DNA of 64,000 bases from Eledone cirrhosa (Eukaryota): assembly GCA_964016885.1 (NCBI GenBank), contig OZ024740.1:371318001-371382000 (forward strand), read 5' to 3'. Under the pieces are notes generated by a model. It was not told the DNA's origin. It worked only from the letters and a program-made list of their open reading frames with translations, and ran no database searches. Below, one piece after another: positions 9,040 through 61,925 of the stretch. Made by a program: the position numbers and the translations under genes. Each line of letters begins with the position of its first letter. The stretch's first letter is position 1.

Positions 9040-10460
9040 AAAGTGATGCTTCTGATGATGATAATGGCAGTGGTGGTGGTAGTGGTGGAGATGGTAGTGG
9101 TGGTGGTGGTGGAGATGGTGGTGGTGGTTGTGGAGATGGTAGTGGTGGAGATAGTGGTGGTGGAGATGGTGGTGGTGGTGGTAGTGGTAGTGGTGTATAT
9201 GGTAGTGGTGGTGGTAGTGGTGGTGGTATTAGTGGAGATAGTAGTGGTGGTGGTGGAGACGGTGGTGGTGGTGGTGGTGGTGGTGGTGGAGGTGGTGGTG
9301 GAATTAGTGGAGATGGTAGTGGTGGAAGAGGTAGTGGTGGTGGTGGTGATGGTGGTGGATGTGGTATTAGTGGAGATGGTAGTGGTGGTGGTATTAGTGG
9401 AGATGATGGTGGTGGAAGAGGTAGTGGTGGTAGTATTGGTTGTGGTATTAGTGGGGATGGTTGTTGTGGTGGTATTAGTGGAGATGGTAGTGGTGGTGGT
9501 ATTAGTGGAGATGGTAGTGGAGGTGATAGTGGTGGTGGTATTAGTGGAGATGGTAGTGGTGGGAGAGGTGGTAGTGATGGTGGTATTAGTGGAGGTGTTA
9601 GTGGTGGTGGTATTAGTGGAGATGGTAGTGGTGGTGGTATTAGTGGAGATGGTAGTGGTGGTAGTATTAGTGGCGATAGTAGTAGTGGAAGAGGTGGTAG
9701 TGTTGGTGGTGATGGAAGTAGAGAAAGAGGTGTTGGTGAAGGTGGTAGTGGTGGTAATTGTAGTGTTGATGTTGATATTCATGATGATGGTGATGGTGGT
9801 GATAGAAATGGTGTTGATGGTGGTGATTGTTGTGGTGATGTTGGTATTAGTAACAGTAGTGATGGTGGTGGTGGGGGTAATGATGTTGGTATTGATGATA
9901 ATGGTGATGAAAGTAATAGTAGTGTTGGTGGTGGTGGTATTGATATTGGTGGTTGTGATGTTGGGGTTTGTGGTAATGGTGGTGGTGGTGATGGTTATAG
10001 TGGTGGTTGAAGTAGTTGTAGTAGTAGTAGTGGTGGCGGTGGTGGCGAAGATGTCGGTATTGATGATAGTAATGATAGTGGTGGTGGTATTGGTATTGGT
10101 TGTAGTGATAGTAGTGGTAGTGGTGGTTTAGTTGTGGTGGTGGTGGTTGAAGTAGTAGTGGTGGCGAAGATGTCGGTATTGATGATAGTAATGATAGTGG
10201 TGGTGGTATTGGTATTGGTTGTAGTGGTAGTAGTGGTAGTGGTGGTTTAGTTGTGGTGGTGGTGGTTGAAGTAGTAGTGGTGGCGAAGATGTCGGTATTG
10301 ATGATAGTAATGATAGTGGTGGTGGTATTGGTATTGGTTGTAGTGATACTAAATGATAGTAGTGGTGGCAGTAATGGTATTAGTATTGATGCTGATGCTA
10401 CTGATGATGATGATGATGATGATGATAGTAGTTGTAGTTGTGGAAATGGTAGTGTTATGA
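9040..10460. repeat. (GGT/GTA/GAT)n low-complexity tract with 27-bp and about 120-bp higher-order repeats
   Basis: Unit gtagtggtggtggtattagtggagatg recurs, and there are three copies of ggtggcgaagatgtcggtattgatgatagtaatg at 10.0-10.35 kb. Confidence 0.9.
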
Positions 10461-41962: not shown

Positions 41963-42820
41963 AAACATCCTGCCAGCATGCAAACATCCTGCCGGCATGC
42001 AAACATCCTGCCAGCATGGAAACATCCTGCCAGCATGGAAACATCCTGCCAGCATGCAAACATCCTGCCAGCATGGAAACATCCTGCCAGCATGGAAACA
42101 TCCTGCCAGCATGCAAACATCCTGCCAGCATGGAAACATCCTGCCAGCATGGAAACATCCTGCCAGCATGGAAACATCCTGCCAGCATGGAAACATCCTG
42201 CCAGCATGCAAACATCCTGCCAGCATGCAAACATCCTGCCAGCATGCAAACATCCTGCCAGCATGGAAACATCCTGCCAGCATGGAAACATCCTGCCAGC
42301 ATGGAAACATCCTGCCAGCATGGAAACATCCTGCCAGCATGGAAACATCCTGCCAGCATGGAAACATCCTGCCAGCATGGAAACATCCTGCCAGCATGCA
42401 AACATCCTGCCAGCATGGAAACATCCTGCCAGCATGGAAACATCCTGCCAGCATGGAAACATCCTGCCAGCATGGAAACATCCTGCCAGCATGGAAACAT
42501 CCTGCCAGCATGCAAACATCCTGCCAGCATGGAAACATCCTGCCAGCATGGAAACATTCTGCCAGCATGCAAACATCCTGCCAGCATGGAAACATCCTGC
42601 CAGCATGGAAACATCCTGCCAGCATGCAAACATCCTGCCAGCATGGAAACATCCTGCCAGCATGGAAACATCCTGCCAGCATGGAAACATCCTGCCAGCA
42701 TGCAAACATCCTGCCAGCATGCAAACATCCTGCCAGCATGGAAACATCCTGCCAGCATGCAAACATCCTGCCAGCATGGAAACATCCTGCCAGCATGGAA
42801 ACAACCTGCCAGCATGGAAA
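41963..42820. repeat. 19-bp minisatellite AAACATCCTGCCAGCATG(G/C), about 45 copies
   Basis: Directly visible and spacer-free. It explains the six long pseudo-ORFs. Confidence 0.97.
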
Positions 42821-44318: not shown

Positions 44319-44498
44319 TATGTATACTTACATTTATGTATCAGCTGTGCTAGGGCGAGAAATAAAATTCTAATTTTATTTTTAATATTTGGCAAGGCTA
44401 GCCGTAACTCACTTGGTATGCAAATGAGGCTACTCAGCCGATATGTACTTAAGAAAATACTATATATTTTCAACCGTTCAACAGACTGGTAGAGGTGT

Positions 44499-44541
44499 AC
44501 AGTCCTGATGAAGAGTAATGACCCAGAAACATGTTGATTGT
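44499..44541 (+). ncRNA. Type I hammerhead ribozyme motif (P2 partly decayed)
   Basis: P1 ACAGTC/GATTGT, CTGATGA, P2 AGAGT-AATG-ACCCA, GAAA, palindromic P3 ACATGT, GUU site. Confidence 0.65.
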
Positions 44542-44680
44542 TTCTCAAAACCAGTGTGGAACAAAAAGGTGACGATTGGTCACTGGCACAACACAGCTTC
44601 AAATCGGGCCGTTTGTTTATAAATGAATGAGAATATTATATTAGTGTTTGATATAACCCATACATATATATATATATATA

Positions 44681-57706: not shown

Positions 57707-58187
57707 ACAGTGGGTGGACTGGGTCTAAAAATATTAGTTGCCAGGAGATAAAGGGGGCCCACCTACATATAGAATGCTATCATTTAATTTTTATAATGAA
57801 TAAATAACATTTTCGAAAAATACATAAGTGGAAACAAAACAGTGCAATCACATTTTTGCGGAAAAATATCTTACCTTCCCCAATAAAAAATATTACGTAT
57901 TTTGCGAAATCCAGAAACTTTCAATAATGACCAGAAATCGACCCTAAATGTTATTAATAGCTCTAGGAAAGCCATGAACGACATCACATCTTTTAAACTT
58001 TGATTTTGAAAGTAGGTTTATAATTATCAATTTTCACTATTCTTTTGTTCAAAAGATTGGGATACAGCGGATTAGAGGTTGTTTTGAACTGAGGCAGTCC
58101 GCAGTTCGATATTCCTTTGAGTTTGCTGACAGAAATCTTTGCAAAGAAAACAAAAATGCCAAGTATATTACATACATTACATAAATG

Positions 58188-58300
58188 AAGGCAGCGAACT
58201 GACAGAGTCGTTAGAAGATCTAATAGAACGCTTTACGGTATTTGTTCCGGCACCCTGCGCTTTGAGTTCAAAACCCGCCGGGGTCAACTTTGCCTTTCAA
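58188..58300 (+). mobile_element. Meta-domain SINE 5' half
   Basis: GAGTTCAAAACC B box followed by gtcaactttgcctttca. Confidence 0.55.
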
Positions 58301-58893
58301 GTCCTCTTTATTGAAAATGATTATTCATTATTTTTTTTTCATTTATTAAAACTGATTTCAAATCGTCTCATTTGCGCTCAGACACTAAGGAAGTATTTAA
58401 GTGTATTCACTGATCAGTAAACATTGGTTTGCTTTTTCTTTTGAAATCATTGCCTGAAGTTACATTGAATTCAGGTAGCTGCTAATTGAGTTAGACTAAT
58501 TAATCGTCCTTGTCTTGATTACTTTAACGAAATATTTTTGTGTGAGAGAAAATGAACATTCAATGCATATTATAGGGTTAATTAATTTATTTAAAGCTAA
58601 CGTTTATCTTCGTTGCTAATCCGAGTTTCTCTTTTCGCAGAAGTTCAACAAGATAATTAAAGGACAAGGCATGGAAGTTGTGTATTTGCCTGCTTCAATG
58701 GTGTTAATAAGCTTGAGGATTAGAACTCGACTGCTTGACGAAAGTAACAACATACCTGATACTATGATTAGTGGAACAATGTGAACATTTTTTTTACAGC
58801 GGTCACATGTGCTATACATGTGCTCAAATATACAGGCACCGTTGTTCATATATAAACATATATAACTACAAAATATTCGGAGAGTGTAGTCAG

Positions 58894-58896
<3 letters not shown>

Positions 58897-58932
<36 letters not shown>

Positions 58933-58986
58933 AGTATGTATGTATACGTACATACATACATATATGTATACAGACGTACAGTAGCA

Positions 58987-59038
<52 letters not shown>

Positions 59039-59665
59039 CAGGTACACATACATATATGCACGCATCAATTTAGCGGATGCTTATTATAACGCCGCTTTGT
59101 TCGTTTGTCAACAAACTGAAAGCTGTTCAGTTTGTTGACAAACGAACAAAGCGGCGTTATAATAAGCGTCCGCTAAACTGATGCGTGCATATATGTATGT
59201 GTACCTGTATATATATATATATATATATATATATGCATGCTACTGTACGTCTGTATACATATATGTATGTACGTATACATACATACTTACATTTAAGTAA
59301 GTGCCATACTAAGAGTGAGAAATGAAATTTCGTTTTCATTTTTTTCAACTTATCGTTTTCGGTATGCCTGACCGATTTAACTCACTCAATATGCAAATTA
59401 GGCTGCTCAGCCGTTAATTTTCATAAGGAAAGTATATACTTTCGAACGTTCAACTATCTGGCAGATGGGTAAACGGTGCTGATGATAGCTAACAAGCTTG
59501 AAACTAGTACATCGTTCCTGTGTCAGTGTTGAACAAAAAGGTGACGTGGTTGCCTTAACACCGTATGGCATAAATTCAGGCTGTTCAGTTTGTTTACAAA
59601 CGAACAAAGCGGCGTTATAATAAGCGTCCGCTAAACTGATGCGTGCATATATGTATGTGTACCTG

Positions 59666-59731
<66 letters not shown>

Positions 59732-59851
59732 TGCTACTGTATACATATATGTATGTACGTATACATACATACTTACATTTAAGTAAGTGCCATACTAAGA
59801 GTGAGAAATGAAATTTCGTTTTCATTTTTTTCAACTTATATATATATATAT
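58897..59851 (+). mobile_element. Non-coding Penelope-pLTR/retrozyme-like element: inverted arm plus 1.5 tandem units, with TSD
   Basis: Inverted arms 58928-59119 and 59125-59292. Direct repeat of 59123-59351 at 59581-59838 (458-bp period). GTGTAGTCAGTAA occurs at 58884-58896 and 59852-59864. Confidence 0.75.
59472..59516 (+). ncRNA. Type I hammerhead ribozyme
   Basis: P1 AACGGTG/CATCGTT, CTGATGA, P2 tAGCT-AACA-AGCTt, GAAA, P3 ACTAGT, GUA site. Confidence 0.75.
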
Positions 59852-60387
59852 GTGTAGTCAGTAATATATATATATATATATATACGCCGTTATGGCATGA
59901 CACCCACAATTTCGATTAAATTCATTTAATTTATCTTAATTTTGGATATAGATATATAAATACGGCTCCTTAATTGTAGAGCTAACTCTGTTGAAAGGAA
60001 TCGACTGCTGTTTCTAGTTGTCGAATACCTATTCACGCCACTGAGACGAAGCCGCTGTGATGTGTAAAAACAACACGTGGTAACGGCCAGTTGAGATTTG
60101 AACTCGCTGTGTAAGCATGGATTGCTGGAATATTGTTATTCCTTGTTGATAATCCAATAATATCCACTTTCTGTGACTTACCATCTGATTAATTGGTGAA
60201 ATATATTTCTTTAATGGAATATATACAGGGAAGATTAATCATATTAAAAGGTATCTATTTTTGAAGTTCTAGTCAACTTTATTTATTTGTTACCTACTAG
60301 CTATGCGTGGTTACACGCTTGAAAACATTATCTCCTGTGATTATTCATGTTTATATTTATTTATATATATGTTAATCAATTTCTAGT

Positions 60388-60420
<33 letters not shown>

Positions 60421-60421
<1 letters not shown>

Positions 60422-61117
60422 ACTAGTTCAATGTCTGGCTTTCTGGAGAATAGAGGAAAGGTGTTTCCTCAAAAACCAGTATGACTCTAAAAACCGGTTT
60501 GTCTGTGTGTTTACATACAGAATAGCTGGACACTCACAGTAAAGTGATCAGTGAAAAACTCGGTACATCTACATATGTATACGTGTGTGTATTCATATGC
60601 ATACTAGTATTTCAGTATACATATGTGGATGTACATTTTTAACTTAATTGTTTAAGCGTCAGTCATACAAAAGTGAGTTACAAACGAAACGAAATTTAAT
60701 TTCGTTTCGTTATTTGTTTTTATCCTCTCCGTTGAACCGGTACGTACTCACGCTCTATGCAAATTAGTCTGCCCACTACTAATTTTCATAGAAAAAGCAT
60801 ATAACGATATGTGCTTTTACGATTCTCTAGAAAGGCCGGAAGATAGGTAAATATTGCTGATGAGATGTAACAACATCGAAACTAGTTCAATATTCCTTGT
60901 CTGGCTTTCTGGAGAATAGAGGAAAGGTGTTTCCTCAAAAACCAGTATGACTCTAAAAACCGGTTTGTCTGTGTGTTTACATACAGAATAGCTGGACACT
61001 CACAGTAAAGTGATCAGTGAAAAACTCGGTACATCTACATATGTATACGTGTGTGTATTCATATGCATACTAGTATTTCAGTATACATATGTGGATGTAC
61101 ATTTTTAACTTAATTGT
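60421..61117 (+). mobile_element. Retrozyme-like partial tandem (1.5 units, about 460-bp period)
   Basis: 60421-60651 is repeated at 60880-61117, and the first copy begins at the 3' half of the hammerhead. Flanked by (TA)n. Confidence 0.75.
60850..60894 (+). ncRNA. Intact type I hammerhead ribozyme
   Basis: P1 AATATTG/CAATATT, CTGATGA, P2 GATGT-AACA-ACATC, GAAA, P3 ACTAGT, GUU cleavage site at 60885-60887. Confidence 0.88.
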
Positions 61118-61364
61118 ATATATACATTCATATATATATATATGAATGTATAGTATATATATGAATGTATAGTATATATATATATAAATATATAGTATAT
61201 ATATATGAATGTATAGTATATATATATATGTATATATATGAATGTATAGTATATTTGGTAATATACTGTATGTTTAATTAAAAACATTTTGAAGACCTTG
61301 CGCTATTATTTTAAGGTAGTGACTATGTCACTTACTTCTTTTTTCAGCAAAGGAAGGGAGAGAA

Positions 61365-61404
61365 TCTGACAGATCTGTTTCACACTGTTGGTGTTCCTCA
61401 GAGC
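61365..61404 (-). ncRNA. Hammerhead ribozyme (core intact, one P1 mismatch)
   Basis: GCT-CTGAGGA-ACAC caaca GTGT-GAAAC AGATCT GTC-AGA. Confidence 0.6.
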
Positions 61405-61722
61405 AACGTACTCGCCGACCTCTGCCGAAAATTATAGAGGCTGGATTCTTAAAGAATTCCAGTAATAACCAGGAACTGATTATACAGAGCGATTGCCGGT
61501 CCAACAAAAATAAAAAAATTAGGATTGGTGCTCATCGCTATTTCAGAGCACCAACAAAAATTAAAAATTAGGATTGGTGCTCTGAAATAGCGATGAACAC
61601 CAATCCTAATTTTTAATTTTTGTTGGACCGGCAATCGCTCTGTATAATCAGTTCCTGATTATTACTGAAATTCTATAAGAATCCAGCCTCTATAATTTTC
61701 GGCAGAGGTCGGCGAGTACGTT

Positions 61723-61762
61723 GCTCTGAGGGACACCAACAGTGTGAAACAGATCTGTCAGC
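61723..61762 (+). ncRNA. Hammerhead ribozyme (P1 intact, A9G core change)
   Basis: GCT-CTGAGGG-ACAC caaca GTGT-GAAAC AGATCT GTC-AGC. Confidence 0.6.
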
Positions 61763-61925
61763 TTCTCTCCCTTCCTTTGCTGAAAAAAGAAGTAAGTGAC
61801 ATAGTCACTACTTTAAAATAATAGCGCAAGGTCTTCAAAATGTTTTTAATTAAACATACAGTATATTACCAAATATACTATACATACATTCATGTATACA
61901 CCGCTATTTCAGAGCACCAATCCTA

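What the first reader, a model, noticed from the sequence alone, without database searches (positions are those of the whole stretch)
58884..59864. Complete insertion event: TSD, fold-back arm, 1.5 tandem units, TSD
Seen: GTGTAGTCAGTAA(TA)n is duplicated on both sides. Inside is an inverted arm of about 190 bp with a 5-nt loop at 59120-59124, then a 458-bp-period direct repeat with the hammerhead at 59472. Known: an inverted 5' copy plus partial tandem is the signature of Penelope-type reverse transcription. Inference: the whole 955-bp non-coding cassette was mobilised in trans at a TA-repeat boundary.
Basis: partly seen in the sequence, partly recalled or inferred. Interest (0 to 1): 0.72.

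Follow-up and report, generated by a model that had tools for sequence, protein, structure and literature searches.

The report
Hammerhead retrozyme with Penelope-type insertion scars
This is one of over ten thousand copies of a protein-free repeat that carries a self-cutting-RNA motif; its two back-to-back arms with unequal fixed ends suggest it was pasted in by the enzyme of a Penelope-type jumping gene, and the short flanking duplication seen here is real but rare in the family.

Summary
The anatomy is real: a 13-bp word at 58884 and 59852, an inverted arm of about 194 bp with a 5-nt loop (59121-59125), 1.5 units of a 458-bp repeat and one minimal type I hammerhead. It belongs to a young family with 10,122 exact hammerhead copies in this genome. 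92 of 138 complete insertions are two-armed, and none of the 92 has the 61-nt tail on both arms. That is the Penelope 'tail' mark, and a coding Penelope-like family here shows it too. So the element is likely an animal non-LTR retrozyme copied in trans by a Penelope-like enzyme; the partner was not found. The 'TSD' is not a family trait: 1 of 137 other insertions has one, no more than element-free TA tracts show. That one case, however, has ten empty paralogues with a single 21-bp word and no TA run, so such duplications can be real and TA runs can arrive with the insertion. The empty site of this locus could not be tested. Each unit carries a U6/MRP-like upstream motif. Earlier notes of this scan described the family, its ends and this motif on other DNA.

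The parts
58884..58896 (+). Left copy of the duplicated 13-bp target word
   Evidence: flank unique in genome
58897..58927 (.). TA run between the left word and the short end of the inverted arm
58928..59120 (-). Inverted arm; outer end at the family's short end (unit position 170)
59121..59125 (.). 5-nt loop at a symmetric junction; both arms stop at the same unit position, overlapping by GC with one base missing from the inverted arm
   Evidence: read from the sequence
59122..59579 (+). First full 458-bp unit of the forward arm
59390..59401 (+). 12-bp motif matching the element at -77 to -79 of the host's U6, U6atac and RNase MRP genes
   Evidence: kept in two diverged relatives
59432..59439 (+). 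TATA-like box matching the one at -31 of the host's Pol III genes; 42 nt from the upstream motif against 46-48 in host genes
59472..59516 (+). Minimal type I hammerhead motif: 7-bp stem I, palindromic stem III, predicted cut after 59509, U-U in place of the usual G10.1-C11.1 pair
   Evidence: 10,122 exact 40-nt copies
59580..59778 (+). Partial second unit up to the short end
59779..59839 (+). 61-nt one-sided tail, ending at the family's long end (unit position 231); holds a T7 run at 59825-59831
59840..59851 (.). (AT)6 between the element and the right word; not present upstream of the left word and not in the unit at this place
59852..59884 (+). Right copy of the 13-bp word plus (TA)10

Best explanation
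This is a young insertion of a high-copy, non-coding hammerhead repeat, likely copied from RNA by the reverse transcriptase and GIY-YIG nickase of a Penelope-like element acting in trans. Inferred steps: both target strands were nicked at a TA run; one 3' end primed copying from the long start site and ran 1.5 units along a multimeric or circular RNA; the other end gave the inverted arm bounded by the short start site; the two met at a 2-nt microhomology. The 13-bp word, with up to ten TA pairs, was likely duplicated during this event, and the (AT)6 beside it was likely added then. Shown: anatomy, copy number, end rule, TA context. Not shown: self-cleavage, transcription, partner enzyme, empty site of this locus.
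For: 10,122 exact hammerhead copies in tandem and back-to-back layouts; median 99.6% identity over 497 unit copies. Of 181 tail-anchored loci, 138 were complete and 92 two-armed; 76 inverted arms stop at the short end, none carries the tail. 54 of 60 resolved short ends fall at unit position 170 or 173. In loci chosen by the hammerhead alone, 19 of 31 two-armed copies resolve as one long and one short end and none as two long. Junction positions scatter over the unit. A coding family with RT plus C-terminal GIY-YIG and a hammerhead shows one long and one short arm (L149). The tail is described as unique to PLEs and due to two RT start sites (PMC11167929). L231 has the same word-TA-element-TA-word layout, and 10 of 10 paralogues hold a single word and no TA run.
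Against: No sequence shared with a coding Penelope-like element in the 47 GIY-YIG loci examined; the hits there were separate nearby copies of the repeat. Visible duplication is as rare as background (1 of 137 against 2 of 291). The right word is separated from the element by (AT)6, which a plain staggered cut does not explain. The tail is 61 nt against 30-40 in the papers read. The hammerhead lacks G10.1-C11.1 and this copy has only one. The symmetric junction (6 of 92) could come from snap-back copying of one cDNA rather than two primings.
Confidence: 0.72

Rival explanations
1. The insertion is Penelope-type but the duplicated word is no target-site duplication: it was a pre-existing word-(TA)n-word doublet, or a snippet copied by repair synthesis at the TA run.
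For: Element-free doublets exist (2 real of 291 boundaries). The right word is flanked by TA on both sides. Inverted copies of flank lie across L213, L230 and L132, and a same-side doublet beside L134.
Against: L231 shows that the same layout can arise from a single-word site. The element sits exactly in the TA run between the two words.
Confidence: 0.35
2. The unit is copied by a LINE-type enzyme or captured by host break repair, not by a Penelope-like enzyme.
For: No partner found. Duplications of 13-33 and 21 bp are in the range of LINE insertions (own knowledge). L231 holds only the tail.
Against: Two fixed internal ends, one on each arm, overlapping arms and no poly(A) do not fit LINE twin priming (own knowledge); the pattern matches the coding Penelope-like family.
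Confidence: 0.1
3. The family spreads as DNA (rolling-circle or satellite-type amplification) and the hammerhead is a passenger.
For: Tandem arrays of many units exist (L131); no RNA was seen.
Against: Dispersed short copies with fixed 3' ends, random 5' ends and back-to-back arms; conserved hammerhead and promoter-like motif in relatives at 66-68% identity.
Confidence: 0.06
4. The structure is an assembly artefact at a TA-rich palindrome.
For: No contig spans the locus in three contig runs.
Against: The arms and units differ by substitutions and indels; the layout recurs at 91 other loci. One left-flank contig ends 28 letters past 58885, where a branch is expected if the word has two different left neighbours (weak, and the sample may be the assembled one).
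Confidence: 0.04

Closest known systems
Animal non-LTR retrozymes (coral, mussel, axolotl: PMC7229834, passages; vertebrate survey: 10.64898/2026.07.22.740005, parts 1-3 of 5)
   Same: Non-coding, AT-rich tandem unit of a few hundred bases with one type I hammerhead; thousands of copies; proposed to be mobilised by PLEs; TSDs larger than 4 bp 'when present'.
   Different: The passages read do not report two-armed insertions with one long and one short end, TA targeting or a U6-like motif. Self-cleavage and circles are untested here.
EN+ Penelope-like elements and their pLTR, inverted copy and tail (PMC8557442, sections 6 and 15 and passages; PMC11167929, parts 1-2 of 4)
   Same: 5' truncation, partial tandem, inverted 5'-truncated copy, tail at one end only, microsatellite targets that hide TSDs, minimal hammerhead.
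   Different: No ORF; tail 61 nt against 30-40; no sequence link to a coding family found; both start sites end in AT-like letters that abut the TA run, whereas the Anolis enzyme starts without homology to the target.
Newt satellite 2 and schistosome hammerhead satellite (as cited in PMC2220036, passage; the original papers were not read)
   Same: Hammerhead repeat with a small-RNA-gene promoter inside each unit.
   Different: Newt: Pol II snRNA promoter; schistosome: Pol III promoter. Here the motif matches the host's U6, U6atac and MRP upstream element and is absent from U1 and U2 genes.
Non-autonomous Chlamys PLEs such as MRC1 (PMC8557442, passage; PMC9977147, passages)
   Same: Non-coding, head-to-tail, microsatellite-targeting elements moved by a PLE.
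   Different: They share 3' sequence with their partners, and most Chlamys lack a canonical hammerhead.

Membership tests
Animal non-LTR retrozyme | Type I hammerhead in each unit | tested here: met
   Core, stem I and palindromic stem III present; below Rfam cut-off; G10.1-C11.1 replaced by U-U
Animal non-LTR retrozyme | Short AT-rich non-coding unit in tandem, high copy | tested here: met
   Period 458; GC 0.32 over 58001-60000; 10,122 copies; no stop-free frame of 150 aa inside the forward arm
Animal non-LTR retrozyme | Two consecutive hammerhead units ('active' in 10.64898/2026.07.22.740005) | tested here: inconclusive
   Not met by this copy (one hammerhead); met by many family loci
Animal non-LTR retrozyme | Self-cleavage and circular RNA | not testable with these tools
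   Needs a bench assay and RNA data
Penelope-type insertion | 5' truncation with partial tandem and inverted copy | tested here: met
   92 of 138 complete insertions two-armed; scattered junctions
Penelope-type insertion | Tail at one end only | tested here: met
   0 of 92 with the tail on the inverted arm; 61 nt long
Penelope-type insertion | Microsatellite target | tested here: met
   70 of 76 short ends in TA; two empty paralogues hold (TA)5-8 at the site, one set holds none
Autonomous Penelope-like element | RT plus GIY-YIG ORF | tested here: not met
   No such ORF in the insertion
Non-autonomous partner of a named PLE | Shared terminal sequence with a coding PLE | tested here: inconclusive
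   None in 47 GIY-YIG loci, out of 10,597 candidates of which 150 were scored
Target-site duplication | Single copy of the word at the empty site | not testable with these tools
   Flank unique; no relatives held; no contig spans the site. Met for the look-alike L231
Target-site duplication | Regular feature of the family's insertions | tested here: not met
   1 of 137 other insertions; duplications made only of TA would be invisible
U6-type (type 3 Pol III) promoter | Host upstream motif and TATA box | tested here: met
   Motif at -77 to -79 in 12 of 20 U6 loci, the best U6atac locus and MRP; 0 of 12 U1 and 0 of 14 U2 loci
U6-type (type 3 Pol III) promoter | Host spacing between the two motifs | tested here: not met
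   42 nt (41 and 43 in relatives) against 46-48
U6-type (type 3 Pol III) promoter | Transcription from the predicted start near 59463-59468 | not testable with these tools
   Needs 5' RNA ends

The most novel reading that the evidence does not exclude
Penelope-type insertion of this self-promoted ribozyme RNA uses both nicked strands, one start site each, makes a 13-33 bp target duplication, and writes new (TA)n at both ends inside it. The telomerase-related reverse transcriptase would then be seeding and lengthening the genome's TA microsatellites rather than only landing in them.
Probability: 0.2. Interest if true: 0.72.

Novelty: new variant of a known kind. Interest (0 to 1): 0.45.

Why it matters
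The papers read propose, without showing, that Penelope-like elements move animal retrozymes, and they say target duplications of these elements are usually hidden in microsatellites. This family gives genomic scars that fit Penelope copying, two named start sites on a 458-nt RNA for an in vitro test, and rare loci where a duplication reaches unique DNA. One such locus suggests that TA runs can be made during insertion. As a single locus it is one copy among thousands.

Tried and rejected
Rfam: no family at gathering; microRNA-like hits are TA hairpins below cut-off. A DNA search of the own genome with the unit returned nothing because common words are skipped; a pattern search replaced it. 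Search for a coding partner by similarity: none in 47 loci. Sequencing runs: no RNA holder listed. Laying runs: no joint that skips the insertion in three contig runs, none of which spans the site; the raw-read run laid no reads. Contig support for the right junction alone stays untested. Short TSDs of 4 nt or more: 8 of 72 against 4.8% control; five of the seven besides this locus lie in impure TA repeats and the others are 4-7 nt. A 12-nt likeness between the left flank and paralogues of the right-flank repeat did not extend (scores within or at the edge of shuffles). A simple Pol III model fails as the only source of template: a T7 run lies 8 nt before the long end, and the promoter motif itself is copied. 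The 1994 newt promoter paper is not held.

Full report
Observation. The 13-bp word lies at 58884 and 59852 and nowhere else in the window. The inverted arm is 58928-59120, the loop 59121-59125, and the forward arm 59122-59839 with period 458. The hammerhead has a 7-bp stem I, the CUGAUGA and GAAA core, a 4-bp stem II closed by U-U and a palindromic stem III. By the passages read in PMC4209133, this type needs a dimer to cleave. Arms and units are not identical: two substitutions and microsatellite indels separate the arm from unit 1, and one substitution and an 8-bp deletion separate the units. The genome is a 3.0-Gb animal assembly; earlier scan notes call it an octopus, which I did not test.

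Family. The 40-nt hammerhead has 10,122 exact copies. Copies of the unique part have a median identity of 99.6% (497 hits). I examined 181 loci anchored on the tail followed by TA. 138 were complete; the other 43 ran off the fetched DNA and were dropped. 92 of the 138 are two-armed. In 76 the inverted arm stops at the short end, 7 stop in the unit's internal microsatellite, 9 are truncated or nested, and none carries the tail. 54 of 60 resolved short ends lie at unit position 170 or 173; 16 were not resolved by the pattern. The long end was fixed by the choice of loci, so I also used loci chosen by the hammerhead alone: 19 of 31 two-armed copies resolve as long plus short, none as long plus long (some overlap with the later set). 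The arms meet at scattered positions, and only 6 of 92 are symmetric fold-backs like this one.

Link to Penelope. PMC8557442 describes partial tandems, an inverted 5'-truncated copy, a tail at one end and TA targets. PMC11167929 traces the tail to two internal RT start sites and shows both strands nicked and extended. This genome holds RT plus GIY-YIG frames. One family has a hammerhead about 380 nt after its stop codon, and its two-armed locus L149 has one long and one short end about 50 nt apart. No sequence is shared with our unit in 47 loci, so the partner is unknown.

The duplication. A test for shared unique words across the insertion flagged 3 of 138 direct cases (this locus, L231 and one microsatellite chance match) against 0.8% in mismatched pairs. 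It flagged 5 inverted cases, two of them long, against 1.7%. At 291 element-free TA boundaries there were 3 direct hits, 2 of them real on inspection. The rates do not differ. L231, however, landed in a repeat: 10 of 10 paralogues carry its 21-bp word once and have no TA run there, while the filled site has the word twice with (TA)8 and about (TA)21 inside. Two further pairs had a short run before and longer runs after: (TA)8 against 28 plus 15, and (TA)5 against 12 plus 13. Later slippage could also explain those two. The flank of this locus is unique and contigs stop in the TA run, so its empty site is untested.

Promoter-like motif. A 12-mer at 59390 and a TATA-like box at 59432 match what lies at -77 to -79 and -31 of host Pol III genes: 12 of 20 U6 loci (6 more displaced by an insertion), the best U6atac locus and MRP. 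The 12-mer is absent upstream of 12 U1 and 14 U2 loci. It is kept in two relatives at 66-68% identity and in 439 of 510 hammerhead hits of the main type, which include truncated copies and overlapping loci. The spacing is about 5 nt shorter than in host genes, and a T7 run precedes the long end, so read-through RNA is needed. A TCAG 25 nt before the TATA box mirrors U1 and U2 promoters, but this is a 4-letter match noticed afterwards.

Literature. Eight searches found the retrozyme and PLE papers above. In what I read of them, none reports the one-long-one-short rule for a retrozyme or TA synthesis inside a duplication. An octopus repeat annotation (PMC13282606, passages) has no mention of hammerheads or retrozymes. 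Earlier notes of this scan report the family, the end rule and the motif on other DNA; I had seen these in my own calls before looking them up.

Verdict. A real, young insertion of a known kind of element with clear Penelope-type scars. The duplication is real but atypical, and its origin is unproven.

Noticed in passing
window 44324-44574 and 60563-61117: Two diverged hammerhead elements (66-68% identity to the unit) with the same upstream motif; the second is about 1.4 units and ends in TA.
   Followed up: partly
window 59886-60392: The right flank is a permuted, just over one-unit copy of another repeat family ending in TA, with paralogues in L116 and L338.
   Followed up: partly
window 61240-61900: A long inverted repeat of a few hundred bases per arm between TA runs, probably another two-armed insertion (seen by eye).
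   Followed up: no
window 41963-42820 and 9064-10348: A 19-bp minisatellite of 45 copies at 97% match, and a long GTG-rich array with open frames on both strands.
   Followed up: no
L132, L213, L230: Flank sequence of 28 to over 89 nt appears inverted on the other side of the insertion; element-free palindromes centred on TA runs also occur (L071, L128).
   Followed up: partly
L231 (G000:C2, 64.04 Mb): Tail-only insertion with a 21-bp duplication; ten empty paralogues lack any TA run. An element-free word-(TA)7-word-(TA)8 doublet lies about 300 bp away.
   Followed up: yes
L037, L038, L040-L043: Six U6 genes in a tandem array have a repeat of about 190 bp inserted in the TATA box, which moves the upstream motif to -271.
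   Followed up: no
L135, L136, L137: Penelope-like frames of 938, 844 and 1096 codons without stops; candidates for active autonomous elements.
   Followed up: partly
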